From: Candidatus Aenigmatarchaeota archaeon
GTDB lineage: Archaea; Aenigmatarchaeota; Aenigmatarchaeia; QMZP01; QMZT01
Direction of reading: 5' to 3'
NCBI GenBank assembly: GCA_026397315.1
Contig: JAPLVC010000001.1
Coordinates: 128,001 to 192,000, forward strand
Length of the DNA stretch: 64,000 nucleotides
Numbering within the stretch: position 1 is the first letter of the stretch; each line of letters begins with the position of its first letter. The notes under the pieces are model-generated. The model worked only from the letters and a program-made list of their open reading frames with translations, was not told the DNA's origin and made no database searches. Made by a program: the position numbers and the translations under genes. Positions 1,508-63,470 of the stretch are shown here, piece by piece.

Positions 1508-2692
1508 TCATGCCAGCAGATCCATGCACACGAGGACGATTGTTTCTGAAAAATGCACGAGTTCAGCGAGAGAAATATATTCATTTGACATGTGGGCAAG
1601 GCCCTTCCCGGGCGAGAAACCGACAGCAGTCACGCCCGCAGCGGCGAGCGGCTTGATGAGAGTCGTTCCTGAAATGCCTATGATCTCCGCCTTCTTCCCC
1701 GTCACCTCGACGACGCGCTTCTTTATCATTCCAATCAGCGCATTGCCGCCGTCGACAGCGACGGGCTTCTGGTCGTCAATCACTTCAAGCGTGAATCTCG
1801 CTTTCTTATTTTTCTTCGCAACAGCGGCAAGCATCCTCTTCACATCGCCTATAATCGCTAGCGACGACTGCGACGGCAGATAGCGGATATCGATAGTCGC
1901 CTCACACTTCGCAGGCACGATATTCGCCGCTTCCCCGCCACGCACAATACCCAGATTCAGCGTCGGAGGCGAGAGAAGCGCATGTTTCTTGAATTTCATC
2001 CGCTTATCATATCCCTTCAAAAGTTTCAAGAATTCAACCATGTGCCAGACAGCGTTTATCCCTTCGTCAGGCGCAGAGCCATGTGCTTGCTTCCCGAACG
2101 ACGTGACTTTCAAAAACAGCAACCCCTTTTCAGCGACGTCTATCTTCCTCAGCTCGTGCTCTATGTCAGGCACAATCGCATACTCAGCAGAAAGTCCGCA
2201 TTCGTCGAGCAGGTAGCGCATGCCAGCTTTTGAGCCTGCTTCTTCATCCGCGACGCATGCGACAATGACCTGGCCGTGAAGCGACGATTCGACTTTCTTC
2301 AGCGTTTTCGCAGCCATGAGTATGCCGGCAAGCGGGCCTTTGTTGTCGACCGCGCCTCTGCCATAAATTTTATCACCATCGACGCGAGCCTTGAATGGGT
2401 TGGAATCCCATCCCTCGCCTGCAGGGACGACATCCATATGGCACGCCAGAAGAAGGCGAGGGTGACCTTTGCCGATATAGCCGATGATGTTCGCCCGTCC
2501 CTTCTCCTTCTCAAATATGCGATAGGCAATCCCTTCAGTCTCGAAGAAGCGTTTCACAACGCCGGCCGCACGCGACTCGTTGCCGGGCGGATTAGTCGTG
2601 TCCTCAGCGATAAGGTCAGAGAGCAGCTTTATGGTCTCGCTCCTCGCAGGCGTCGAAGGGCCTGAAGCATTTGAAGTTTTGCGAATCTCCAT
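1508..2692 (-). CDS. M20 family metallopeptidase/deacylase (ArgE/DapE-like)
   Basis: CHMDVVP, GRGAVDNKG, ADEE, GKQAHGS, NIVP, AHMSNE motifs. Confidence 0.92.
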   Translation of the reverse strand: MEIRKTSNASGPSTPARSETIKLLSDLIAEDTTNPPGNESRAAGVVKRFFETEGIAYRIFEKEKGRANIIGYIGKGHPRLLLACHMDVVPAGEGWDSNPFKARVDGDKIYGRGAVDNKGPLAGILMAAKTLKKVESSLHGQVIVACVADEEAGSKAGMRYLLDECGLSAEYAIVPDIEHELRKIDVAEKGLLFLKVTSFGKQAHGSAPDEGINAVWHMVEFLKLLKGYDKRMKFKKHALLSPPTLNLGIVRGGEAANIVPAKCEATIDIRYLPSQSSLAIIGDVKRMLAAVAKKNKKARFTLEVIDDQKPVAVDGGNALIGMIKKRVVEVTGKKAEIIGISGTTLIKPLAAAGVTAVGFSPGKGLAHMSNEYISLAELVHFSETIVLVCMDLLA

Positions 2693-2839
2693 GATTAATA
2701 TTTCCCGCAGCCATACTAATAACCGATACGTCAGTTAGGACATTGCAAAAATATTCGACAACATTGAAGATGTCTCTCTGCCTGAGAATGAATTTTAATT
2801 TATAAGTCAAAAATTCAAAATTATTCAAGTGTTATTTCC

Positions 2840-3469
2840 ATGGCAGATCCATCTGTGGTGAATGAAACCTTTATACAATTATTAGTGGTAGTCGTATTTG
2901 TTTTGATTTACTCTACTTTCATATATTATTTTGCTGGATCGAAACGAAAAGCAATAGAACAGAGAAAAAAACGTTTTTACAAAGCATTGGTAGAAGGTTT
3001 AAAAAATAATTCCATAGAATCAATAGATGATGTTATAAACGTTTACAAAGGTATTTCTGGGTTAAGTTCAGAAAATTTAACATACAGATATCATTTAAGT
3101 AAATATTTGCGTCAATTTATGTATGAAATTATTTCTAAAAATAAATTATTAATTGAATCCGAACTGGATGATGAAACAATAATAAAATGGAAAGTTAAAA
3201 TATCTAAATTTATTGAGAAAAATGAAGAATTTTCTCCATATGCAGATATACCTGCGGCAGAAAGAAATGTTCTAAGTGATATTTCAGTATTTATTGAGAA
3301 AAAGGATACAGAATCAATAAAAAGGAAAATAGGTGAATTAGCTGGAATGATTCAAGCCAGACAGGATGATATGAATAAAATTAGAAATATAAACAACTGG
3401 ACAATTCCACTTTCAGTGATAGGTCTTGTGTTAACGGTTATATTTGGTATATTAGCAATCACCACTTAA
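2840..3469 (+). CDS. Hypothetical membrane protein in AT-rich island
   Basis: 209 aa with hydrophobic helices at both ends; much more AT-rich than flanks. Confidence 0.75.
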   Translation: MADPSVVNETFIQLLVVVVFVLIYSTFIYYFAGSKRKAIEQRKKRFYKALVEGLKNNSIESIDDVINVYKGISGLSSENLTYRYHLSKYLRQFMYEIISKNKLLIESELDDETIIKWKVKISKFIEKNEEFSPYADIPAAERNVLSDISVFIEKKDTESIKRKIGELAGMIQARQDDMNKIRNINNWTIPLSVIGLVLTVIFGILAITT

Positions 3470-3618
3470 TCAATTGAAAATTATTTATCTGGATCTCAAT
3501 TTCGAAAAACCGCTATATACTCGGTGCGTGCTCAGAAGAAAACGTATCGGTACTGGCGGTTAGTGAATGAAAATGTTTAAACATAGTAATTTATATCCCA
3601 TTCCAAATTCTCAAATAT

Positions 3619-4428
3619 ATGATAAAATCTTTATTACCTGAAGATTGGCACAAGATAATAATTTCAGTTGAAAAACACGATAAAATTAATGATATATATT
3701 TTCCAATAGGAACAGGGTTTCTGATAGGGTATAAAGGATTCACCGTTTTTGTAACTGCTAAACACATAGCTGAAATCATGGATAAAAATGAAGATATTTA
3801 TTTAGCTTGGAATGCAAATGATAGTTCAATAATAAGAAAGAATTTCGAAAATTTAAAAAATGATTCAGAGTGGATATTTCACGAAAATTCTCAAATCGAT
3901 ATAGCAGTAAGATTTTTTAAATTATATTCCGAGTCAGATGATGTGAGAGTATTGGCTGAAAACCTTTTTGAAAGCTTTGAAGATGTAATGGAAGGAGATG
4001 ATATTTTATTTCTTGGTTTTCCACTTCACATTTCAGAACCTAATAAAATCCACCCGGTGGTTAGAAGTGGTATAATAGCATATAGAAAAGAAAATAAAAA
4101 CTTCCTGATAGATGCAAATGTTTTTCCTGGAAGTAGTGGAAGTCCTGTTTTTTTAAAAACAAGTGCAATAACATATGAAAAAGGAAATTTCAACTTGGGT
4201 AAAGTTAGAATACCAAAATTAGTTGGAATAATAATCGAAGCTTTACTTTATGATGACATCGCAATTAGTCAGCAAACAAAAAGGCATGTGGTTACTTTTT
4301 CAGAAAATGCTGGTTTTGGTGTTGTCTTATCTGTGGATTTAATAAATGATATACTAGAAAGTCAAAATTTTCAAATGCTATTTGAAAAAATAAAAAAAAT
4401 AGACGCTGAAATAAATAAAGATAAATGA
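3619..4428 (+). CDS. Trypsin-like serine protease in AT-rich island
   Basis: GTGF, VTAKH (His), DIAV (Asp), PGSSGSPV (Ser) catalytic-triad motifs. Confidence 0.88.
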   Translation: MIKSLLPEDWHKIIISVEKHDKINDIYFPIGTGFLIGYKGFTVFVTAKHIAEIMDKNEDIYLAWNANDSSIIRKNFENLKNDSEWIFHENSQIDIAVRFFKLYSESDDVRVLAENLFESFEDVMEGDDILFLGFPLHISEPNKIHPVVRSGIIAYRKENKNFLIDANVFPGSSGSPVFLKTSAITYEKGNFNLGKVRIPKLVGIIIEALLYDDIAISQQTKRHVVTFSENAGFGVVLSVDLINDILESQNFQMLFEKIKKIDAEINKDK

Positions 4429-20143: not shown

Positions 20144-20247
20144 GTCCCGGTAGCTCAGCTGGCAGAGCGTTCGGCTGTTAACCGAAAGGTCGCACATGAG
20201 CTGGGGAACCATCTCGTGGACTAAAGGTTCGAATCCTGCCCGGGACG
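20144..20247 (+). tRNA. tRNA-Asn(GTT) with 31-nt BHB intron at 50/51 (20194-20224)
   Basis: Acceptor GTCCCGG/CCGGGAC, anticodon GTT 20177-20179; BHB helix GGTC/GACT with bulges GCA and AAA; splicing restores GCAGG-TTCGAAT-CCTGC. Confidence 0.93.
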
Positions 20248-20426: not shown

Positions 20427-20705
20427 ATGGAGCTTTTCGACGTGGTCGACAGGCACTGCAACATCCGCCTTCTCAAGACCAACTGCAACTTCAGGTTATG
20501 CGAGAAGCCGCCTGAGAAGGAAATGCTTATTTTCGAGATGACCATGAACACGGCCAAGAAGAAGGACATAATCTCCCTTTACCTCTGCCGCGAGCACTAC
20601 AATGAGATGGAAAAGGCACTTGAGAGCGTTATCGGCAGGTTCAGGAACGGCCGCGTCTACAGGATAAAGCAGATGGACGATAAGATAAACGTGGTTAGAT
20701 ATTGA
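20427..20705 (+). CDS. Small hypothetical protein, possibly Zn-binding
   Basis: CNFRLC...LCREH pattern; host-like codon usage. Confidence 0.7.
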   Translation: MELFDVVDRHCNIRLLKTNCNFRLCEKPPEKEMLIFEMTMNTAKKKDIISLYLCREHYNEMEKALESVIGRFRNGRVYRIKQMDDKINVVRY

Positions 20706-20730
20706 TTAAATAACAACACAAATTATTTTT

Positions 20731-21513
20731 ATGGGCTCTATTGTCACCTTAAATGATGTACTGAAAATCTACAAATCACAAAAAGCAGGCGAGATAGCTC
20801 TGAAGCCTTACAATAAATGGTTTCCTTTAAAGCCCTCACCGGAGCTAGCAGGCGTAGTTGCAGATTTGATATGTGACGGTCATCTTCAGGGCAATCCAAA
20901 ATGGAGAATAGATTTTACCTTCAAAATAAACGAAGAAAAGCTGAGATTCGAAAGGAAAATTGAAAAAATATTTGGTGTTAAAGGAAAAGCGAGGCCTTGT
21001 TATTCCAATATGTGGGGAGAAAGTTACAATTACGGTGTGAATTGCAAACCTCTGGCTAAAACTCTTTTTCTATGCGGAGTTCCCAGCGGCAACAAGGTGC
21101 TGGGAAATTTCGCTTTTCCTAAATGGATTCTTGAAAATAAAAATTATTTCAAAGAATTCACGAAAAGATTTTATAATTGCGAGGGCACTTGCTGGGGAGG
21201 TAAAAGCCCGGGCATAGGCTTTGAGATGTGGAAAGAAACTGGTAAAATCGACAATTTAAAAGAATTTCTGGAAGTCATAAGATGTGGCCTGAAAAAATTT
21301 TTCGATATAAAAACGACGGAAATTTTCACGACAAGTTCCGTGCATAACAGAAAGGATGGCTATGTGACAAGGCCTCTGAGGTTTTATATAAAAAGAAAAG
21401 AGTCTATATTTAAATTCTATAGAGATATAGGATTTGAATACGAAAAACAAAATAAATTGAAAAACATAATAGAAAATTGGGGCAGAACCTCTGTGGGAAC
21501 TGAAGTGCCATAA
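20731..21513 (+). CDS. Free-standing LAGLIDADG homing-endonuclease-like protein overlapping tRNA-Phe
   Basis: LAGVVADLICDGHL and FTKRFYNCEGTC motifs, FPKWIL, FYRDIGF; AT-rich; no intein ends. Confidence 0.85.
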   Translation: MGSIVTLNDVLKIYKSQKAGEIALKPYNKWFPLKPSPELAGVVADLICDGHLQGNPKWRIDFTFKINEEKLRFERKIEKIFGVKGKARPCYSNMWGESYNYGVNCKPLAKTLFLCGVPSGNKVLGNFAFPKWILENKNYFKEFTKRFYNCEGTCWGGKSPGIGFEMWKETGKIDNLKEFLEVIRCGLKKFFDIKTTEIFTTSSVHNRKDGYVTRPLRFYIKRKESIFKFYRDIGFEYEKQNKLKNIIENWGRTSVGTEVP

Positions 21514-21620
21514 CAGTAGCTCAGCCCGGGAGAGCGCTCGTATGTAGCGGGAATAATGAATCCCGCTTCATGGCGAAGCTGAAGACCGATAGGTCGTGGG
21601 TTCAAATCCCACCTGTCCCA
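21495..21620 (+). tRNA. tRNA-Phe(GAA) with two BHB introns: 15 nt at 4/5 (21499-21513) and 37 nt at 30/31 (21541-21577)
   Basis: Spliced acceptor GGGACAG/CTGTCCC, anticodon GAA 21581-21583, T arm GTGGG-TTCAAAT-CCCAC; BHB helices GTGG/CCAT and CGCT/GGCG, each with two 3-nt bulges. Confidence 0.88.
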
Positions 21621-21656
21621 TATTTTATTTTTATTCTTTCCATCGAATCATTCTCT

Positions 21657-23157: not shown

Positions 23158-24108
23158 CTACTCCACGAGCTCTTCTTCTTCCTTGACCTTTTCCTCGACC
23201 TCGTCTTTTATGCCAAGGCGCTCGACTATCTCCTTGTAACGATTTCGAATGGTCACTTCGGTCACGCCTATCGCGTCCGCGACTTCGCGCTGCGTCTTTT
23301 TCTTGCCTTCGAGAACAGCTGCAATGTAAAGTGCCGCAGCCGCGACGCCTATCGGTCCCTTTCCGCTGGTCACGTCGTAGCGCATCGCTTCGTCAAGGAC
23401 CTTGACAGCCTTGACCTGGATTTTCTCGTCCAGACCAAGCAGCGAGCCGAATCTCGGGATGTAATCCTGCGGCTTTGCCGGCAGTATGCGGATGTCAAGC
23501 TTCCTGGAAATATAACGGTAGGTCTTGCCTATGTCCCTCTTGGCGATGCCTGAAGCCTTCGAAATCTCGTCCAACGTCCTCGGCGCGCCCTCTTCACGGC
23601 AAGTCGTGTATAGTAACGCCGCGATTATCGATTCGGTCGAGCGGCCGCGCACCAATCCCTTTTCGACGGCCTTTTCGTAAAGCTTGGCCACTTTCTCGTG
23701 GACGGCCTGGGACAAATTCAAGTATGAAATGAGCCTCTGCAACTCTGAGAATGCGAACGAGAGATTACGATCCTTCGACTTTATCAGTCTCTTGTGCCAT
23801 TTGGAAAGCCTGTAATACTGCGCACGCTTTTTCGCAGCGACCTTGAACAACTCGCCTCGTCCCTTGCCTATCTCAGTCGTCAGCCCCTGATCGTGTTTCG
23901 TCACTGTAAGTGGCGCACCGGTTCTCACGCGTCGCGAGCGCTGGCTGTCGTCGAACGCTCTCCATTCCTGCGTCGTGTCGATCATTGAAGAATTAATAAC
24001 AAGGCCGCAGCTGCCGCATGTCATCTCGCCGCGCGAAGAATCATAACGTAAATTAGTGGATTTGCACTCAGGACACTTTTGCTTTTTCTCATCAGTTTTT
24101 GGGCACAT
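23158..24108 (-). CDS. tfb: Transcription initiation factor B
   Basis: CPECKS...CGSCG Zn ribbon, EWRAF, GLVRGRS, PRTLDEI, GVTEVTIRNRYKE. Confidence 0.97.
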   Translation of the reverse strand: MCPKTDEKKQKCPECKSTNLRYDSSRGEMTCGSCGLVINSSMIDTTQEWRAFDDSQRSRRVRTGAPLTVTKHDQGLTTEIGKGRGELFKVAAKKRAQYYRLSKWHKRLIKSKDRNLSFAFSELQRLISYLNLSQAVHEKVAKLYEKAVEKGLVRGRSTESIIAALLYTTCREEGAPRTLDEISKASGIAKRDIGKTYRYISRKLDIRILPAKPQDYIPRFGSLLGLDEKIQVKAVKVLDEAMRYDVTSGKGPIGVAAAALYIAAVLEGKKKTQREVADAIGVTEVTIRNRYKEIVERLGIKDEVEEKVKEEEELVE

Positions 24109-24323
24109 GTTACTCCCTTTAAGTGATTATAGCGAGATAAACGTTAATATATCTTATAGTTTACTCATTTATAAAGATTTGTATGGTTCAGTGTATACTA
24201 CTCCATGGCTTTCTGTTTGCATGATATCGGTTTTGCGTGTTACGCCTCAGGAGTGTCTTATTATTAGTCAAAGTATTTATAAGCGCAGGTTAATATTACT
24301 AAATTAAGTTTTGAGGTCTCTTT

Positions 24324-24713
24324 ATGAGCGAAAGGGTAGCAACAGTGAAAGACTTGAAGCCAGGTTCGTATGTCATGATAGATGACGAGCCCTGCAGAGT
24401 TCTTAAGATATCCACATCAAAACCGGGCAAGCACGGCGCTACGAAGGCGCGAGTCGAGGCGGTCGGTGTGTTCGACGAGAAGAAGCGCACGCTGATGAAG
24501 CCCACGTCCGCTGGATGCAACGTGCCGATAATCCTCAAGAAGGGAGCGCAGGTCATTTCCATATCAGGCAACATGGCCCAGCTCATGAACCTCGAGGATT
24601 ACTCGATGTTCGACTGCGAGATTCCTGCGGATCTTAAGGACAATGTCCAGCCAGGCAAAGAAGTGGAATACTGGGAAATAGGCGACAGAAAAGTTATAAA
24701 ACAGGCCAGATAA
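24324..24713 (+). CDS. eif5a: Translation factor aIF-5A
   Basis: SKPGKHGATKAR hypusine motif. Confidence 0.97.
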   Translation: MSERVATVKDLKPGSYVMIDDEPCRVLKISTSKPGKHGATKARVEAVGVFDEKKRTLMKPTSAGCNVPIILKKGAQVISISGNMAQLMNLEDYSMFDCEIPADLKDNVQPGKEVEYWEIGDRKVIKQAR

Positions 24714-24831
24714 GGCGGAATGCCTGCAATTTTTCCCTTGTTTATTTGTAATATTATTGTTTTGCCCGTTCGTCAAGTTTAAACAAAAGTCTTATATACC
24801 CTTCGTTTTTTAATAATATCAGGTGATTTGT

Positions 24832-24906
24832 TTGCTGCTTGAAGATGAAGGCGATGAGCCGGGTGTTGGAGACGACGAAGAGACGGAAGAAGAGGAGGAT
24901 CTCTAA
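24832..24906 (+). CDS. 24-aa highly acidic micro-protein (not in ORF track)
   Basis: TTG-start MLLEDEGDEPGVGDDEETEEEEDL; GGTGA SD 5 nt upstream; AAAAGT-CTTATATA promoter at about 24785-24798. Confidence 0.55.
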   Translation: MLLEDEGDEPGVGDDEETEEEEDL

Positions 24907-24913
24907 TACCTAA

Positions 24914-26659
24914 TTAATTTTTCTTATTTTTTATAATATTGCTAGTCTTGTAATCGCCCAGTTTTTCCCTGATTCTCACAATTTTACACACAATGCCATC
25001 TTCAGCCAGAAGCTTCGCTAGCGCTTTCTCGTCAGCCTTCTGGTCATGGCCCAGCGCTATGATATCCGGCATAGCCCACATTATCGTTTTTAAATAACTG
25101 CTTTCTTCTTTGCCCAAAAATGCACCGTCAACATAAGATATTTCTTCCATGACGGCCAATCGTTGCTTTTCCTCGTTAATAGGTAATCTTCCCTTAAAAT
25201 TTTTTGCAGTTTGATCTCTGGCTATTATGACTATCAACAAATCTCCCAATAATTTGGCGGATTTAAGCAAATGTAAATGTCCTGGATGTACTATATCAAA
25301 AACTCCTCCAGTAAGAACAACCTTGAATTTCATCCTACCTTTCTCATTTAGTGAATATTTTCCTGGGAGAAAACCAATTAATGACGATCTTCCTCGACTG
25401 CCTAAAAAAACTCTATCGCTCATCTTATTTACAAGACCTTCACGTAGGAGTTTGCTAACTATCCTTGCCGTTCTAGTATATGTTCTTTGACATTTTAAAG
25501 ATAATTCGGGTATTGTGAAAAAACCATATCTGAGTTCTAAAAGGTATGCTTTTTTTAAAAATTCAACAGAAGCTTTACTGTTAGGAAATTGATATTGTTG
25601 ATAGGAAGATAAAGCAACTTTTAATTTTTCCTTTTTATATTTCAAATCAGAACCAATTTTGGTTTCAAATTTAATAAGCTCACTTCTGTTGTCTATGTTT
25701 ATTTGCCAAACGCTAGAATCTGATTTGATTCCTTTGAACTTGGGTCCCACATATTCTATTCCGACTTTATCCAAAAGTTTGCAATCGCCCAACAGCAGAG
25801 GGGGTGGGGTTTTTTTGTCCCTGTTTACCAATCTTAATACAATTGACCGATGTTTCTTTTTTTGATTAAAATAAACAGAACCATCATCGTCAAAACATCT
25901 TCTAATAAAAGTCGTCAAAAATTTTTCATCGTTACCGAAAACAAAATTCGGAATATTCTGTTTATGTTTTTTCAAGTCCCTTTTAAACAAGCAAAGTGTT
26001 ACTAATGCAATAATCGCAGGTAATTTTATTGTATGGTTTGTTAAACTTTTATTCCAACCACCTTTAGGTTCTTCGATTTGACCAAAAATATTAAAAGCAG
26101 CATCCAAGAAGCTTTTTCTCATTAGAAATGCCTCTTTTTCATCACTTGCTTTTTTCTTCGTGTAGGCTGTGAAATTTTCATTTAAAAAGCCATCATGCAT
26201 GATTGAAGAGATATATAGAGCGCCATTATTTGTATTGAAATTGAAAGGTAGTTTGGGATTCAAAATGCTTTTCCTATAAGTTCCTTTGGGTGTTGTTAAT
26301 TCAAGAATATCTTGGTTCTTGATCAATTTAAAATTGTTAATATAATAAAGTATTTTTATCAAAAGAGACAATTTAATAAACTTTCCTTTATCTAGATTGT
26401 ATAAGGCAGGGCAGTATCTTTGTCTTATCTTCTCTCCCAAAAACCTGCCAAACTCTGTCAGATTTTTAAAACCTCCCGTTTTTAAGGATAGAAAAATTAG
26501 CTCACGCCCCTTTTTTTCTGTTAATCTTAAGCTGGTTGAAGGGTGCAAATTCCACAAAAATACAATTCCGGTATTTGGTGGTTTATTGAAAAAATCTTGA
26601 GATAACAATTTTTCATTGAAATTCTCAAACGCTTCTTTTAAAAAATCAATTTCAACCAT
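24914..26659 (-). CDS. ribL: LAGLIDADG-like/wHTH protein fused in frame to FAD synthase RibL (RibL domain 24914-25333)
   Basis: YISSIMHDGFL and FIRRCFDDDGSV motifs; C-terminal VLTGGVFDIVHPGH...IARD...PDIIALGHDQ is the RibL nucleotidyltransferase signature. Confidence 0.82.
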   Translation of the reverse strand: MVEIDFLKEAFENFNEKLLSQDFFNKPPNTGIVFLWNLHPSTSLRLTEKKGRELIFLSLKTGGFKNLTEFGRFLGEKIRQRYCPALYNLDKGKFIKLSLLIKILYYINNFKLIKNQDILELTTPKGTYRKSILNPKLPFNFNTNNGALYISSIMHDGFLNENFTAYTKKKASDEKEAFLMRKSFLDAAFNIFGQIEEPKGGWNKSLTNHTIKLPAIIALVTLCLFKRDLKKHKQNIPNFVFGNDEKFLTTFIRRCFDDDGSVYFNQKKKHRSIVLRLVNRDKKTPPPLLLGDCKLLDKVGIEYVGPKFKGIKSDSSVWQINIDNRSELIKFETKIGSDLKYKKEKLKVALSSYQQYQFPNSKASVEFLKKAYLLELRYGFFTIPELSLKCQRTYTRTARIVSKLLREGLVNKMSDRVFLGSRGRSSLIGFLPGKYSLNEKGRMKFKVVLTGGVFDIVHPGHLHLLKSAKLLGDLLIVIIARDQTAKNFKGRLPINEEKQRLAVMEEISYVDGAFLGKEESSYLKTIMWAMPDIIALGHDQKADEKALAKLLAEDGIVCKIVRIREKLGDYKTSNIIKNKKN

Positions 26660-59287: not shown

Positions 59288-59433
59288 TGAGCCCGGCGGG
59301 AATCGAACCCGCGACCCCCAGATGTCTTTCCGCACCTTGTTCTGTCATTGGCTTTCGCCAGAAAGCGATAACCTCAGCATACTTTTATCGAACAGATAAA
59401 AGTCTGGTGCTCTACCGATTGAGCTACAGGCCC
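59288..59433 (-). tRNA. tRNA-Lys(TTT) with 73-nt canonical intron at 37/38 (59324-59396)
   Basis: GGGCCTG/CGGGCTC acceptor, CCAGA-CT-TTT-A|A-TCTGG, BHB helix CTTT/AAAG. Confidence 0.93.
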
Positions 59434-59435
59434 AC

Positions 59436-59573
59436 GCAGCGACAGACGCAGTTTGCGACTGCGTCATACGCTTGCAGCGACAGACGACCTGAAATATAAA
59501 TTCAAGTCGTCAATTGCTGCGACGCCCTGGCCGGGAGTTTCAGACGGACGCAGATAAAATCTGCGTCATGCGC
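59436..59573. repeat. Three related hairpin elements: two in the Asp-Lys spacer, one inside the tRNA-Asp intron
   Basis: GCAGCGACAGACG at 59436 and 59474; GAC(A/G)GACGCAG-N7-CTGCGTCAT(A/G)CGC at 59441 and 59543. Confidence 0.75.
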
Positions 59574-60000: not shown

Positions 60001-60105
60001 GTAAAATCACAAATGTGAAGTATACTATGAAGAGATAAGTTTTTAAACGTGTTTACCGCCCGGATCGTCCAAAAAACATGGTTTCAGTATTAAAAAAAAG
60101 AAGTA

Positions 60106-60299
60106 TCCCCCGGGTGAGATTTCCATACGCGAAAGCTGCTGGTTTTCGCTTAAGCCTTTTCAACAAAAGGCTTATTTTGAACTCACAACCTATCGGTTTC
60201 TGAAGCGACTGCGAATGACCAACACACTCGTAAAACCGAGTTTAAGTCACCGTGCGAGAGTCTACAGCCGATCGCTCCACCAGATTGAGCTACCGAGGG
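60106..60299 (-). tRNA. tRNA-Tyr(GTA) with two introns: 64 nt at 37/38 (60198-60261) and 56 nt at 59/60 (60120-60175)
   Basis: C1:G72 and A73 archaeal Tyr identity; ATCGG-CT-GTA-G|A-CCGAT; BHB helices CTGT/TCAG (3 of 4 pairs) and TTCA/TGGA. Confidence 0.92.
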
Positions 60300-60515
60300 A
60301 TGCACGCAATACGCGTAATATTATATAAACGTCTCCAGAATTTAAATATTGGCCAGACCACGGTCATTATCAGTCGGAGTATAAGAACGGTGGAATCCTT
60401 TATCTAAAAATGTTCTTTTTTAGTTTTTTGTTGTCTTTTTGAATAGCACTTGAACCATTAATTGCATTTTGTGTTTCGTGCGCCCATCTATCAGGTTATC
60501 AGATGCTTTATGATA

Positions 60516-63470
60516 TCAACATCCGGGTTTGCTGCCTTTTCCGAAGTCCTTGCCTATCGTGACCAGATCGAAAATGTTGACTCCCGAGTCATGGTTTATG
60601 TCAGCAGCCACGTTGAAGCCGGAAGTCAAACCGAAGTTTGTGGCGACAAGAACCGCATCGGAAATATCCACGCAGTGGTCCCCGGTCGTATCGCCGGAGC
60701 ACAACGGGTCAGTGCCGTCGCAATTCTCGTCTGCGCTATTGTCGCATATTTCTGTTGTTGGGTTTATTGATCCTGTGCAGTTGCTCCATTGTCCTGCTAC
60801 GCAGGTTTGGTTTCCTAGTTTGCAGATTCCTATGTTGTTTGTTCCGCATGTTTTTTTCTGCCCTGCTGTGCAGTTGCATGTAGAGCATAATGAAAGATTA
60901 ACTCCATATGAATTTCCTTCAGGCAATACTATTGACAAATTGCCATAACTATTCGTAATGGCAGTTGTATTCAGAATTGAATTGATAAATAGATTATAAG
61001 TCCTGTCTGGAATAAGACCTGTTTTATTCATGATTGTTGGTTTATCCATCCTTTCTACGTAAAATGTCGTTTTAATATTAGACAGATTCTTTATTACAAA
61101 CCAATTAGCAGATGCGTTAGAATAACAGTTTTGAGTTGGTGAGATAAATGTGTAGTTTGCAATTGTAATTTTTTGGTTGCAATAATGATATATGTTAAAA
61201 TTTGATTTATTCATCACGTAGTATTTTGTGTTATTAATTGTTTTTACTAATTCTCGCATATACAATTCATTGCCCGAATAATTTAGATGCACAACATCAT
61301 AAAGAAGCGAAGTATTCCCTCCCATCAAATACTGAATTTCCATAAAGGGAATCTGATTGTCAATTGCGATTTGCCTTAAGCCAGCATCATATAATGATTG
61401 AATTGTGCGATTGTCATAATTTGTTATATATAATGTAGTTGTAGAAGTTATTAGAGTTGTGTTTAAAGCATTGTTTTTTATTCCCTCAAGTAATATCCTG
61501 GCATCTCTTGTGTACTCTGAAGCTGATACTCCCTTCGGAATATCATTTATGTTTGGGAGAACATACGCGAAGCGAGGATTGTACGAAACAACGTCATTCA
61601 TATATCTATTTACAGCACTTGTAGCAGGATTTGGGCACGTGCTAGCTAAGCAAGACCCGTCTATCCCTTTATTCACGGAGGTTAGATTCCAAAATGAGTA
61701 ATTTGTAGCTAATTCTAAAGCCGCAGGTGCGATGAAACTTCCACGAGGAAACCCCCTCATTACAGAATCACCAAGGCCAAGAAGAGTATTATTCCAAGAA
61801 TTGACTGCGGGTGTCGTGCCGTTCACTGTTATATTAATGTTTGGAGTGAAGTCCCCGAACCATTCCACTCCCTCTTTAAGCATCCTCCATCTTAGTACAT
61901 ATGTTCCGAGCTTGGATGGAGCGATGATGGTGAACCTGAACTCCTTGCTCGACCCGGGATTCACTATCTCACCCTGATTAAGAAATGCTCCGGAAATAAC
62001 CCAAACGCTGTCATTCCCTGATTGAATCCCCAGACGATGAGAACTCGCCTTAGTCCATGCCGTCGTACCAGTATTATTCATGGTGACAGAGATATTATAA
62101 TTTTTTCCAGCAGCCATCCTTGTTGGAATAGACTGTGAGACGAACCGAGCATTATTCACAGGAGGCTGAGTCGTATTTTGATACTTGCAGCTTTGATTGC
62201 ACAGCCCGGTTCCTGGTGCCTTGCCATTGCAGGATTGTGATGCGTTGCAGGCGGAATCACAGAGGTTATTTCCAGAACCGCCAGGCCTTACTGTTAATGT
62301 ACCATTGCATTTTGCTTGTTCCGCGTTTCTATAGCTGACTCCGTTCACCCCGCAGAATGGATTCGGGTCCTGGATGCTGCACATGACTTCTTTCCCCCAG
62401 GCTTTATGCTGGGCCAGCATATCAGGGACATGCAAGCCAATTCCCAAGCACTTCATTGTGGTGGCTGAAAGATATGCATTATAAGCCGCGGCAGTAGAAT
62501 ATGTGAATCCTATCACTCCTACCACATCAGAATCAGATTTAGCCCAATCATAATACCATTGCTGCTGGCAAATGCTCGGTATCTGACTTATGCCCCAGCC
62601 TCCGCCATATTGATTGCACTTAAAATTCTGCGGTATCAAAAGTATTTTTTTGGAGGAATCAGAATGAACAACCCTATCAATCTCGGCCAATTGTTCCGCT
62701 GTACATCCATCGGGATAAGGCTCATCACAAGGGGCATATTGGATTATAGTGCCGCCGGATTTAACCCAATAAAAAACATCGTTCATTTGATCAAGGAAAG
62801 ATTGTTTATTAGCGGCATTGCATGCGAAAGGGTTTGTATGCGAAGCTTCATAATCAGTGGTGAAAAAGTATGGGTCAAGGGCTATAAAGTCTAATTTTGG
62901 ATTATTGAGAACTGATCTGCCGCCATCGCCGCCCCAAGCCACATTAAAAACAATAAATGTCTCTATATTTGGAAAGTATTCTTTTGATAGATTGATAATC
63001 AAATCAACTCTTTCTGGATGATGTATAAACTCAAAATAATTATACGTGTTTGGCTCATCCATCAAATAAAATGACCAGACTTTATCAGCATTAGCGCCAA
63101 GATTAGTCTTTATCTTATCGAGGCAGCTTCGCCACACACTTTCTGATTCCCAAAAATTATGTGCATAATAAGATGTAAGCGAAAGAATTATCTTATGACC
63201 ATTATTATATGCAAAATTTATATTCGTGTCATAAGTCTTATTGCTGGTATCACAGGAAGCACCAATAAAAACGATGTTCGTGAAGAGGGAGAGATTCGCC
63301 TCTTCTGCGGTGCCGGTCCTCACAGGGGCGCCATAAAATCCATAATATTTTAAGTTGGTCGAAGAAGCTTGCGCGATTCCGATAGTATTTTCAAATAGAC
63401 ATGAAATGATTAAGACGACGGTAGTAATTACTAATAAGAGAATGGGCCTCTTCATAAAAACAATAATCAT
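60516..63470 (-). CDS. Secreted multidomain protein: glycoside-hydrolase-like barrel, NBR1-type Ig domain, SGNH hydrolase, Cys/Asp metal-binding motif, dockerin-like C-terminus
   Basis: YLMDEPN and DFIALDPY; NNARFVSQSIP...VTMNNTG..AW; GDS, G.DG, ND, DVVH; EICDNSADENCDG; GD..GD..VDISD and ADIN.D..VNIFD. Confidence 0.82.
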   Translation of the reverse strand: MIIVFMKRPILLLVITTVVLIISCLFENTIGIAQASSTNLKYYGFYGAPVRTGTAEEANLSLFTNIVFIGASCDTSNKTYDTNINFAYNNGHKIILSLTSYYAHNFWESESVWRSCLDKIKTNLGANADKVWSFYLMDEPNTYNYFEFIHHPERVDLIINLSKEYFPNIETFIVFNVAWGGDGGRSVLNNPKLDFIALDPYFFTTDYEASHTNPFACNAANKQSFLDQMNDVFYWVKSGGTIIQYAPCDEPYPDGCTAEQLAEIDRVVHSDSSKKILLIPQNFKCNQYGGGWGISQIPSICQQQWYYDWAKSDSDVVGVIGFTYSTAAAYNAYLSATTMKCLGIGLHVPDMLAQHKAWGKEVMCSIQDPNPFCGVNGVSYRNAEQAKCNGTLTVRPGGSGNNLCDSACNASQSCNGKAPGTGLCNQSCKYQNTTQPPVNNARFVSQSIPTRMAAGKNYNISVTMNNTGTTAWTKASSHRLGIQSGNDSVWVISGAFLNQGEIVNPGSSKEFRFTIIAPSKLGTYVLRWRMLKEGVEWFGDFTPNINITVNGTTPAVNSWNNTLLGLGDSVMRGFPRGSFIAPAALELATNYSFWNLTSVNKGIDGSCLASTCPNPATSAVNRYMNDVVSYNPRFAYVLPNINDIPKGVSASEYTRDARILLEGIKNNALNTTLITSTTTLYITNYDNRTIQSLYDAGLRQIAIDNQIPFMEIQYLMGGNTSLLYDVVHLNYSGNELYMRELVKTINNTKYYVMNKSNFNIYHYCNQKITIANYTFISPTQNCYSNASANWFVIKNLSNIKTTFYVERMDKPTIMNKTGLIPDRTYNLFINSILNTTAITNSYGNLSIVLPEGNSYGVNLSLCSTCNCTAGQKKTCGTNNIGICKLGNQTCVAGQWSNCTGSINPTTEICDNSADENCDGTDPLCSGDTTGDHCVDISDAVLVATNFGLTSGFNVAADINHDSGVNIFDLVTIGKDFGKGSKPGC

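What the first reader, a model, noticed from the sequence alone, without database searches (positions are those of the whole stretch)
20731..21620. LAGLIDADG gene whose last five codons are exactly a tRNA-Phe intron
Seen: the ORF runs into tRNA-Phe. The 15-nt acceptor-stem intron (21499-21513) starts on a codon boundary and reads ACT GAA GTG CCA TAA (TEVP*). Its BHB helix GTGG/CCAT uses the pre-tRNA leader, which is endonuclease coding sequence. After splicing the ORF would end GGA CAG TAG (GQ*), so both RNA forms are closed. I see no clear TATA box just upstream of the tRNA, but TTAAATA (20706-20712) precedes the ORF. Inference: a selfish endonuclease inserted between the tRNA and its promoter, is co-transcribed with an essential tRNA, and is linked to tRNA splicing and 5' maturation; the intron could also shield the host allele from cleavage.
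Basis: partly seen in the sequence, partly recalled or inferred. Interest (0 to 1): 0.75.

Follow-up and report, generated by a model that had tools for sequence, protein, structure and literature searches.

The report
Homing endonuclease gene docked on tRNA-Phe
A selfish DNA-cutting enzyme gene has wedged itself between the phenylalanine tRNA gene of a tiny archaeon and its promoter; it arrived with two small tRNA introns that endonuclease-free sister genomes lack, which gives a before-and-after view of how odd archaeal tRNA introns may arise.

Summary
ORF 20731-21513 (260 aa) has a LAGLIDADG homing-endonuclease fold. It runs into the genome's only detectable tRNA-Phe(GAA). That tRNA is split as exon 21495-21498, 15-nt intron 21499-21513, exon 21514-21540, 37-nt intron 21541-21577, exon 21578-21620.

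The joined exons are identical to the intronless tRNA-Phe of a congener that lacks the ORF. In 23 ORF-less relatives the tRNA is uninterrupted over positions 1-60. In the syntenic ones a TTTTTAAAT box sits about 26 nt upstream of the tRNA. In the window the homologous box precedes the ORF. Both introns occur only in the four ORF-carrying genomes.

In all 37 loci with enough flanking sequence (DPANN-wide) this protein family lies next to tRNA-Phe. About three quarters of those tRNAs carry an intron at positions 2/3 to 9/10.

Best reading: a tRNA-Phe-specific free-standing homing endonuclease gene with partner BHB introns, analogous to collaborative homing in phages. Cleavage, co-transcription and intron shielding are inferred, not shown. 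A weak TATA-like octamer at -31..-24 of the tRNA leaves an independent promoter possible.

I found no paper describing this. The scan has noted the same family on other DNA before; what is new here is the intronless, ORF-less sister allele.

The parts
20705..20712 (+). TATA box (ATTAAATA) homologous to the tRNA-Phe promoter of ORF-less relatives; now 18 nt upstream of the ORF's ATG
   Evidence: Alignment of junctions: the block TATTGA(TTT)TTAAATAACA is shared with G002/G004, where it lies about 26 nt before tRNA G1. Function as a promoter is inferred.
20731..21513 (+). 260-aa double-motif LAGLIDADG endonuclease ORF, GC 0.37 in a 0.50 genome
   Evidence: invariant D49 G50, E151 G152; pLDDT 92.7; Foldseek hits to PI-PfuI, I-DmoI, I-Tsp061I, I-SceI and others; dN/dS 0.13-0.14.
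21464..21471 (+). Weak TATA-like octamer ACATAATA at -31..-24 of tRNA G1; candidate internal tRNA promoter inside the ORF
   Evidence: Same spacing as the canonical TTTAAAA boxes of L011, L015 and L019. Poor match to this genome's tRNA TATA boxes.
21479..21485 (+). GGGGCAG: an upstream second copy of the acceptor 5' strand inside the ORF (after the Trp codon); a relic or an alternative 5' exon
   Evidence: it pairs with the 3' acceptor strand in the MFE fold; BHB helix TTGG/CCAT has only 3 bp. Equivalent copies in L003, L004, L007, G018 and L040 track each lineage's own acceptor.
21493..21496 (+). 5' strand (GTGG) of the central 4-bp BHB helix of intron 1; two leader/coding bases plus G1 G2
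   Evidence: Helix variants in relatives: ATGG/CCAT, GTGG/CCGC, GCGG/CCGC, ACGG/CCGT, CTGG/CCAG, TTGG/CCAA.
21495..21498 (+). tRNA-Phe exon 1 (positions 1-4, GGGA)
21499..21513 (+). Intron 1, 15 nt, at tRNA position 4/5. A relaxed BHB (inner helix 1 bp, outer helix 2 bp). It holds the ORF's last five codons including TAA
   Evidence: Homologous 28-nt intron in L007 with the same ACT... ...GCCATAA ends and a 7-bp inner helix. Absent in G002/G004.
21514..21540 (+). tRNA-Phe exon 2 (positions 5-30)
   Evidence: BLAST block 4-31 of the intronless gene.
21541..21577 (+). Intron 2, 37 nt, at position 30/31. Good BHB: central helix CGCT/GGCG and a long inner helix
   Evidence: The inner helix is kept by different sequences in G003 and L001. 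Absent in G002/G004.
21578..21620 (+). tRNA-Phe exon 3 (positions 31-73, anticodon GAA at 21581-83, no encoded CCA)
21623..21635 (+). T-rich tract (TTTTATTTTTATT); likely archaeal terminator of the unit
   Evidence: Inference from the known oligo-T termination of archaeal RNA polymerase.

Best explanation
This is a free-standing LAGLIDADG homing endonuclease gene (HEG) of a family whose home is the tRNA-Phe gene of DPANN archaea. The ancestral arrangement in this lineage was: upstream gene stop, TATA box, ~26 nt, intronless tRNA-Phe. A cassette replaced the ~25-nt leader plus tRNA bases 1-4. The cassette consists of the ORF, a new copy of bases 1-4 and a 15-nt BHB intron. The same alleles also carry a 37-nt intron at 30/31.

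Shown: the insertion and replacement; the linkage of both introns to the ORF; the endonuclease fold with its catalytic acids; purifying selection; the presence of a broad-specificity epsilon2 splicing endonuclease and an RNase P RNA candidate.

Inferred:
1. The enzyme cuts intronless, ORF-less tRNA-Phe loci, and repair copies the cassette in.
2. The 5'-proximal intron (and possibly the changed leader) interrupts the recognition site, so the carrier is immune. The intron in turn hitch-hikes, as in collaborative homing.
3. The ORF is expressed from the captured tRNA promoter. The tRNA is then released from the same transcript by EndA splicing and RNase P, and/or made from a weak promoter inside the ORF's 3' end.

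Because the stop codon lies in the intron and TAG (U8 A9 G10) follows in frame, both unspliced and spliced RNAs have a closed frame.
For: Fold and catalytic residues:
- AF2 pLDDT 92.7.
- 142 PDB matches at E<=0.001; the 50 best listed are LAGLIDADG-fold proteins, mostly homing endonucleases.
- D49/G50 and E151/G152 are invariant in 34 homologues.

Selection and composition:
- dN/dS is 0.13-0.14 at dS up to 0.99.
- GC is 0.37 against 0.50 for the genome.

Presence/absence:
- The ORF occurs in 2 of 5 genomes of the genus and 3 of 23 of the family, counting the window's own genome.
- The fourth carrier, L001, is a metagenome contig about as distant from the window as G002 and G004.

Before/after:
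- G002 and G004 are syntenic, lack the ORF and both introns, and have the TATA ~26 nt before G1.
- G002's tRNA equals the window's joined exons.
- 23 ORF-less relatives have positions 1-60 uninterrupted.
- All four ORF carriers (G000, G003, L001, G018) have both the 4/5 and the 30/31 intron.

Family-wide linkage:
- tRNA-Phe(GAA) lies within ~350 nt in all 37 loci with enough flanking sequence.
- 26 are co-oriented downstream, 10 (11 counting contig-truncated L037) divergent, 1 convergent.
- A 5'-proximal BHB intron occurs in about 29 of 38 loci (the count includes truncated L037), with seven different fully paired central helices.

Host machinery:
- A 395-aa EndA matches the ARMAN-2 epsilon2 enzyme 4fz2 at E 3e-104.
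- RNase P RNA candidate, 58 bits, full length.
- No second tRNA-Phe was found in the genome, so this gene must be spliced.
Against: - No cleavage, transcript or splice-junction data exist.
- The window protein itself has no significant Pfam hit. The assignment rests on homologues and on the predicted fold.
- HEG divergence between carriers roughly tracks flank divergence. Vertical descent with precise losses therefore explains the patchiness as well as recent homing does.
- Eight HEG-linked tRNA-Phe genes have no 5' intron (L011, L012, L015, L016, L018, L019, L024, L031), so the intron is not obligatory for coexistence.
- Strong long-term purifying selection would also fit a host function.
- Intron 1 is a weak BHB: inner helix 1 bp, outer helix 2 bp, one G-U in the central helix.
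Confidence: 0.68

Rival explanations
1. The physical insertion is the same, but the ORF and the tRNA are expressed independently. The tRNA has its own promoter inside the ORF's A/T-rich 3' end (ACATAATA at -31..-24 of G1). The overlap is only spatial, and the ORF is not processed together with the tRNA.
For: - The octamer spacing is identical to the canonical TTTAAAA boxes at -31..-24 of the intronless tRNA in L011, L015 and L019, which lie in or against the ORF's end.
- L003 has TAATATAATA at a similar distance.
- Divergent loci show that the family does not need co-transcription.
- The captured TATA box is only 25-27 nt (first base to A of ATG) from the start codon in four carriers. That is rather short for an archaeal promoter driving a transcript that includes the ATG.
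Against: - ACATAATA is a poor match to this genome's tRNA boxes (CTTATAAA, TTTAAATA).
- Similar A/T octamers occur at 93 of 776 ORF positions.
- There is no T5 run between 21298 and the end of the tRNA, so read-through from the ORF would reach the tRNA anyway.
Confidence: 0.35
2. The mature tRNA starts at the upstream copy GGGGCAG (21479). A 31-nt intron (21483-21513 or an equivalent register) is removed, and the reader's GGGA is intronic.
For: - The MFE fold of 21479-21620 pairs GGGGCAG with CTGTCCC.
- In G003 the upstream copy has a perfect ATGG/CCAT central helix.
- Upstream copies track each lineage's acceptor stem in L003, L004, L007, G018 and L040.
Against: - In the window the central helix would be TTGG/CCAT (3 bp) with no flanking helices.
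- In L007 the 7-bp inner helix abuts the downstream copy only.
- In L003 use of the upstream copy would give A8 instead of U8.
- In both genera with ORF-less congeners, the downstream copy reproduces the congeners' acceptor and the upstream copy does not. The window gives GGGA+CAG = G002. G018 gives GGGG+CAG = G009/G014.
Confidence: 0.15
3. The protein is a domesticated LAGLIDADG protein with a host role tied to tRNA-Phe (regulator or maturation factor). It is kept by selection and is not mobile.
For: - dN/dS is 0.13-0.14 over large synonymous distances.
- Divergence is congruent with that of the flanks.
- Linkage to one tRNA holds across DPANN phyla.
- LAGLIDADG maturases and WhiA show that such domestication happens (PDB hits 2ab5 and 3hyi).
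Against: - It was not found in 20 of 22 other family-level relatives, nor in 3 of the 4 congeners searched, although in one of these (G001) a contig break at the locus leaves it uninformative. The other ORF-less relatives have a normal tRNA-Phe.
- Both catalytic acids are invariant, unlike in WhiA-type derivatives.
- Foreign-looking GC content.
- It occurs in either orientation relative to the tRNA.
Confidence: 0.1
4. The ORF is intron-encoded in the classical archaeal way: the true 5' exon lies upstream of the ATG, and an ~800-nt BHB intron contains the whole ORF.
For: ATGGGC at the ORF start (20731-36) could supply ATGG to pair with CCAT and a GGG(C) 5' exon. Many family members begin Met-Gly.
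Against: - It would give GGGCCAG with a C4-U69 mismatch.
- The closest relatives start ATGGAT (G003) and ATGACA (G018) and so offer no 5' exon, yet share the same 3' structure.
- Short introns with compensated helices explain all lineages.
Confidence: 0.02

Closest known systems
Collaborative homing: free-standing endonuclease F-CphI next to the ORF-less group I intron of psbA in cyanophage S-PM2 (described in PMC6083498)
   Same: A free-standing endonuclease gene sits beside a gene whose small ORF-less intron is proposed to interrupt the enzyme's target, so that the enzyme and the intron spread together. Here ORF and intron co-occur and are absent together in sister genomes.
   Different: - LAGLIDADG rather than Endo VII-like enzyme.
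- Archaeal protein-spliced BHB introns rather than a ribozyme.
- The target is a cellular tRNA gene.
- The ORF overlaps the exon and ends inside the intron.
- Cleavage and protection are untested here.
Phage T4 SegB, a free-standing GIY-YIG homing endonuclease in the T4 tRNA gene cluster (PMC2330249)
   Same: A free-standing HEG lives among tRNA genes, recognises conserved tRNA-gene sequence and drives inheritance of itself plus flanking tRNA DNA.
   Different: - Different nuclease family.
- Phage rather than cellular genome.
- SegB's conserved recognition motif is the T-psi-C stem-loop.
- No introns and no ORF-tRNA overlap.
Archaeal intron-encoded LAGLIDADG endonucleases (I-DmoI, I-Tsp061I; PDB 2vs7, 2dch)
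   Same: Same two-domain monomeric fold. The hosts are archaea, and the association is with BHB introns of stable RNA genes.
   Different: There the whole ORF lies inside a large rRNA intron. Here only five codons are intronic, and the ORF occupies the tRNA leader (tested: not an intron-encoded ORF).
tRNA-Thr(GGU) locus heterogeneity in Caldiarchaeum subterraneum (Sugahara et al. 2012, PMC3293823)
   Same: A population-level before/after in which insertion of a mobile element at a tRNA gene coincides with gain of a tRNA intron and with a stray tRNA 5' fragment.
   Different: - That element is a 1.8-kb recombinase-bearing insertion.
- No homing endonuclease is involved.
- No conserved linkage to one tRNA across phyla.
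- No ORF-exon overlap.
Randau and Soll's proposal that tRNA introns protect tRNA genes from mobile-element integration (as summarised in PMC4090602)
   Same: The intron is seen as a DNA-level shield of a conserved tRNA gene sequence.
   Different: Here the suspected attacker is encoded next door and the intron travels with it. That makes the idea testable with one enzyme and two natural alleles.

Membership tests
LAGLIDADG homing endonuclease (monomeric, two-motif) | Two LAGLIDADG helices, each ending in a catalytic Asp or Glu | tested here: met
   LAGVVADLICDGHL with D49 G50, and FYNCEG with E151 G152. Both are invariant in 34 aligned homologues.
LAGLIDADG homing endonuclease (monomeric, two-motif) | Pseudo-dimeric alpha-beta-beta-alpha-beta-beta-alpha fold | tested here: met
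   AF2 model with pLDDT 92.7 and pTM 0.89. Foldseek gives 142 matches at E<=0.001; top hits are PI-PfuI, I-SceI, I-AniI, I-DmoI and I-Tsp061I.
LAGLIDADG homing endonuclease (monomeric, two-motif) | Significant match to a curated LAGLIDADG profile (e.g. PF14528) | tested here: inconclusive
   The window protein has no Pfam hit at E<=0.1 apart from a chance DUF. Of its 39 homologues, 21 carry a precomputed PF14528 hit.
LAGLIDADG homing endonuclease (monomeric, two-motif) | Presence/absence polymorphism at one fixed genomic site among close relatives | tested here: met
   Present in G000, G003, L001 and G018. Syntenic empty sites in G002 and G004. Not found in 20 of 22 other family-level genomes.
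LAGLIDADG homing endonuclease (monomeric, two-motif) | Site-specific double-strand cleavage of the ORF-less allele and biased inheritance | not testable with these tools
   Needs protein and DNA substrates or crosses.
Archaeal BHB (bulge-helix-bulge) tRNA intron | 4-bp helix flanked by two 3-nt bulges, with the cuts at symmetric positions | tested here: met
   Intron 1: GTGG/CCAT with bulges GA|A and AA|C. Intron 2: CGCT/GGCG with bulges CG|T and AA|G. Intron 1 is relaxed: inner helix 1 bp, outer helix 2 bp.
Archaeal BHB (bulge-helix-bulge) tRNA intron | Removal restores a canonical tRNA | tested here: met
   The joined exons are identical to the 74-nt intronless tRNA-Phe of G002.
Archaeal BHB (bulge-helix-bulge) tRNA intron | The helix is maintained by compensatory change in relatives | tested here: met
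   For 4/5 introns: GTGG/CCAT, GTGG/CCGC, ATGG/CCAT, GCGG/CCGC, ACGG/CCGT, CTGG/CCAG, TTGG/CCAA. Read by hand and by script, not by a formal covariation test.
Archaeal BHB (bulge-helix-bulge) tRNA intron | The host has a splicing endonuclease that accepts non-canonical positions | tested here: met
   A 395-aa EndA aligns end to end with the ARMAN-2 epsilon2 enzyme 4fz2, E 3e-104. Broad specificity of that type: PMC3488258 (title and abstract).
Archaeal BHB (bulge-helix-bulge) tRNA intron | Splicing observed | not testable with these tools
   No RNA data. Indirect support: this is the only tRNA-Phe found in a 91%-complete genome.
Collaborative homing (free-standing HEG plus ORF-less intron) | HEG outside the intron but adjacent to the intron-bearing gene, with the two co-occurring | tested here: met
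   4 of 4 carriers in this family have the introns; 0 of 23 ORF-less relatives do. About 29 of 38 HEG-linked loci DPANN-wide have a 5'-proximal intron, in both orientations. Kin are not independent.
Collaborative homing (free-standing HEG plus ORF-less intron) | The enzyme cuts the intronless allele at or near the intron insertion site, and the intron blocks cutting | not testable with these tools
   Needs a biochemical assay.
Intron-encoded archaeal HEG (I-DmoI type) | The whole ORF lies inside the BHB intron | tested here: not met
   Only codons 256-260 plus the stop are intronic. A 5' exon upstream of the ATG is excluded by G003 and G018.

The most novel reading that the evidence does not exclude
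Homing endonucleases create and spread non-canonical archaeal tRNA introns. On this reading the 4/5 (or 9/10) BHB intron marks the enzyme's cleavage or recognition site in tRNA-Phe. It arose or persists as the carrier's immunity, and it is copied into naive genomes together with the endonuclease gene and the 30/31 intron. The extra upstream acceptor-strand copy may be a relic of a previous host's tRNA end. If so, part of the puzzling intron load of DPANN tRNAs would be a by-product of an arms race with tRNA-gene-specific nucleases.
Probability: 0.35. Interest if true: 0.85.

Novelty: new variant of a known kind. Interest (0 to 1): 0.7.

Why it matters
Where the many oddly placed introns of archaeal tRNA genes come from is an old open question. 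Proposals such as mobile-element scars or shields against integration have had little direct support.

This locus offers natural alleles with and without the element. Their mature tRNA sequences are identical, so the only DNA differences in the gene are the two introns and the leader. One small enzyme and two short DNA substrates would test whether a tRNA intron is a shield against a neighbouring nuclease.

It also shows an unusually tight packing of a protein gene and a tRNA gene. The ORF reads through the tRNA's first bases and stops inside an intron. A co-transcript could therefore serve either as mRNA or as tRNA precursor.

Tried and rejected
- ARAGORN, default and with introns allowed, does not find this tRNA. 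It reports a spurious 'tRNA-Phe' with a 2.8-kb intron on contig C4, which has no D arm or proper ends.
- A sequence search of the ORF against PDB gave nothing useful; the fold search was needed.
- Contigs of the 68% and 64% homologues P0003 and P0004 could not be fetched.
- The 'large intron' model, with a 5' exon at the ORF start, was considered and rejected.
- My first spliced-alignment script placed the short 5' exons wrongly because acceptor stems differ between lineages. A BHB-aware search replaced it, and some loci were resolved by eye. L040 remains ambiguous.
- The HEG tree is a quick tree with many open forks. It shows that arrangement classes cluster only partly. I draw no transfer inference from it, also because organism names of the MAGs are loose.
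- Comparing HEG divergence with flank divergence did not separate recent homing from vertical descent with loss.
- The sigma-70 promoter scanner was not used, because it does not apply to archaea.
- Literature searches for LAGLIDADG with tRNA introns, DPANN or tRNA-Phe found no description of this arrangement.
Full report
**What is there**

The window comes from a ~1.05-Mb, 7-contig genome with GC 0.50. Its closest named relative is a Candidatus Aenigmatarchaeota MAG.

ORF 20731-21513 (260 aa, GC 0.37) ends 5 nt before the Rfam-detectable body of a tRNA (29.7 bits at 21513-21616). ARAGORN misses that tRNA. Reading the sequence gives tRNA-Phe(GAA) in three exons:
- Exon 1: GGGA, 21495-98.
- Exon 2: 21514-21540.
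- Exon 3: 21578-21620.
- Intron 1: 15 nt at position 4/5 (21499-21513).
- Intron 2: 37 nt at position 30/31 (21541-21577).

Both introns obey bulge-helix-bulge geometry: four paired bases, then two bases, then the cut.
- Intron 1: GTGG (21493-96) pairs with CCAT (21508-11).
- Intron 2: CGCT (21535-38) pairs with GGCG (21572-75), followed by a long inner helix. That helix also appears in the minimum-free-energy fold.

Intron 1 is exactly the ORF's last five codons, ACT GAA GTG CCA TAA. After its removal the frame reads GGA CAG TAG, where TAG is U8 A9 G10.

**The decisive comparison**

Among 40 relatives, close matches to the ORF occur only in congener G003 (94% identity) and in G018, a member of another genus of the same family. 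In G018 the ORF is split by a contig break.

Congeners G002 and G004 are syntenic on both sides but lack the ORF. Their sequence reads: stop codon of the upstream 92-aa gene, TTTTTAAAT(A), about 26 nt, then an intronless tRNA-Phe. G002's 74-nt gene is identical to the window's three exons joined. BLAST blocks break exactly at the predicted exon ends.

In the window and in G003, L001 and G018, the same stop-plus-TATA block is followed after 18-20 nt by the ORF's ATG. So about 25 nt (the leader plus tRNA bases 1-4) were replaced by ORF + GGGA + intron.

Across 23 ORF-less relatives the tRNA-Phe is uninterrupted from position 1 to at least position 60. Many of them instead have a T-loop intron. 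All four ORF carriers have both the 4/5 and the 30/31 intron.

G018's 4/5 intron is also 15 nt. It has central helix GTGG/CCGC and no stop codon, so its ORF ends at the tRNA's TAG.

**The protein**

- Pfam finds nothing in the window protein.
- Thirty-nine homologues exist, and many carry PF14528.
- In an alignment of 34, D49-G50 and E151-G152 are invariant. These are the ends of the two LAGLIDADG helices.
- The AlphaFold model is confident (pLDDT 92.7).
- Its best structural matches are LAGLIDADG homing endonucleases, including the archaeal I-DmoI, I-Tsp061I and PI-PfuI.
- dN/dS between carriers is 0.13-0.14.

**The family**

Thirty-five loci from species-representative genomes plus three from metagenomes were examined. 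They come from MAGs named Woese-, Nano-, Aenigmat- and Iainarchaeota.

In every locus with enough flanking sequence, a tRNA-Phe(GAA) lies within about 350 nt:
- 26 loci have it directly downstream on the same strand.
- 11 have it divergently upstream.
- One has it convergent and overlapping.

The ORF often runs into the tRNA.
- In L012 the stop TAG is tRNA positions 5-7 of an intronless gene.
- In L004 and G018 the stop is U8 A9 G10.
- In L007, L003, L022 and L029 the stop lies inside a 4/5 or 9/10 intron.

A script that demands a closed acceptor stem, U8 and a paired central helix finds 5'-proximal introns (3/4, 4/5, 9/10) in most co-oriented loci. Together with manual reading it also finds 4/5 introns in divergent loci L008, L021, L025, L027, L030, L033 and L036. 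That is about 29 of 38 loci.

The central helix is kept by seven different base combinations. L007's 28-nt intron shares the ACT... ...GCCATAA ends of the window's intron and has a 7-bp inner helix. The window's 15-mer therefore looks like a shortened homologue.

Because the 4/5 intron also occurs where the ORF does not touch the tRNA, its role cannot simply be to donate a stop codon.

**Which 5' exon?**

A second copy of the acceptor strand, GGGGCAG (21479-85), follows the ORF's Trp codon. Similar copies occur in L003, L004, L007, G018 and L040 and match each lineage's own acceptor.

The MFE fold pairs this upstream copy with the 3' acceptor strand.
- The upstream copy's BHB helix is poorer in the window (3 bp).
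- L007's inner helix abuts the downstream copy only.
- In L003, use of the upstream copy would destroy U8.
- In both genera with ORF-less congeners, the downstream copy reproduces the congeners' acceptor: GGGACAG in G002, GGGGCAG in G009 and G014.

I put the upstream-copy reading at about 15%.

**Expression**

The genome has an epsilon2-type EndA, 395 aa, aligning end to end with 4fz2. That type is reported to accept non-canonical introns (PMC3488258). It also has a full-length RNase P RNA candidate (58 bits) and no second tRNA-Phe. The interrupted gene must therefore be matured.

Whether the tRNA comes from an ORF-tRNA co-transcript is open.
- The captured TATA box is strong. There is no T5 run between 21298 and the tRNA, and a T-tract follows the tRNA.
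- Against this, ACATAATA lies at -31..-24 of G1. That is the same spacing as the canonical TTTAAAA boxes of L011, L015 and L019. It is a weak match to this genome's tRNA boxes, and such octamers are common in the ORF.

**Interpretation**

The data fit a tRNA-Phe-specific free-standing homing endonuclease gene with partner introns. The closest described logic is collaborative homing (F-CphI and the psbA intron, PMC6083498). Another analogue is SegB in the T4 tRNA cluster (PMC2330249). The Caldiarchaeum tRNA-Thr case (PMC3293823) is the nearest archaeal precedent for intron gain with a mobile element.

Cleavage specificity, immunity by the intron and co-transcription are inferences. HEG divergence tracks flank divergence, so ancient presence with precise losses cannot be separated from homing among kin.

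I found no publication describing the arrangement.

Earlier notes of this scan describe the same family beside tRNA-Phe in other genomes. I reached the family-wide linkage independently before reading them. What this window adds is the pair of intronless, ORF-less sister alleles with an identical mature tRNA.

Noticed in passing
window ~59434-59485 (upstream of tRNA-Lys 59288-59433, minus strand) and at least five other tRNA genes of the genome (e.g. G000:C1 above 55775, C6 before 6262, C6 above 135656, C7 before 151078, C5 before 47076): Instead of a TATA box, several tRNA genes are preceded by a conserved G+C-rich hairpin of the type GACGCAG-loop-CTGCGTC followed by (T)TTCGCTG, ending about 8-12 nt before the tRNA. 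Its function is unknown (leader-processing or promoter element?).
   Followed up: no
window 20144-20247 (+): tRNA-Asn(GTT) has an insertion in the variable/T-arm region: Rfam 49.1 bits, with the insert after model position ~44. The homologous tRNA-Asn in L001 is an intronless 74-nt gene, so this intron is also polymorphic among close relatives.
   Followed up: partly
window 21479-21485; L062 (G018:C46) ~160-166: The upstream acceptor-strand copies are 'swapped'. The window's copy GGGGCAG equals the native acceptor of ORF-less genomes of G018's genus (G009, G014). G018's copy GGGACAG equals that of the window's congener G002. This could be a relic of a former host's tRNA end carried by the cassette, but it rests on one base.
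   Followed up: partly
L009 1751-2072, L010 1949-2298, L013 2023-2453: In three Woesearchaeota loci the RNase P RNA gene lies directly upstream of the endonuclease gene, giving the order RNase P RNA - HEG - tRNA-Phe.
   Followed up: no
L004 1647-2204: In this 54%-identical relative, the gene right after the three-intron tRNA-Phe encodes a 185-aa tRNA splicing endonuclease subunit.
   Followed up: no
L071, L074, L075, L077-L079, L081, L082, L084-L088 (tRNA-Phe of ORF-less relatives): Many ORF-less relatives carry an intron in the T-loop of tRNA-Phe (after GGTTCAAA), which the window's gene lacks. So intron positions in this one tRNA turn over quickly within a family.
   Followed up: no
window 2001-4000, 24001-26000, 60001-62000: There are further low-GC islands (0.38-0.40 against about 0.50). 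Weak paralogues of the ORF also occur at G000:C3:79426-79740, C4:106525-107139 and C6:165793-166224.
   Followed up: no
L011, L019 (tRNA 3270-3341, 3280-3351); L012, L015: The HEG-linked tRNA-Phe genes that lack a 5' intron have unusual bases in the otherwise conserved 5' region: A10 (ACTC/GAGT D stem) in L011 and L019, and A3 (GGA...) in L012 and L015. These might be resistance substitutions.
   Followed up: no
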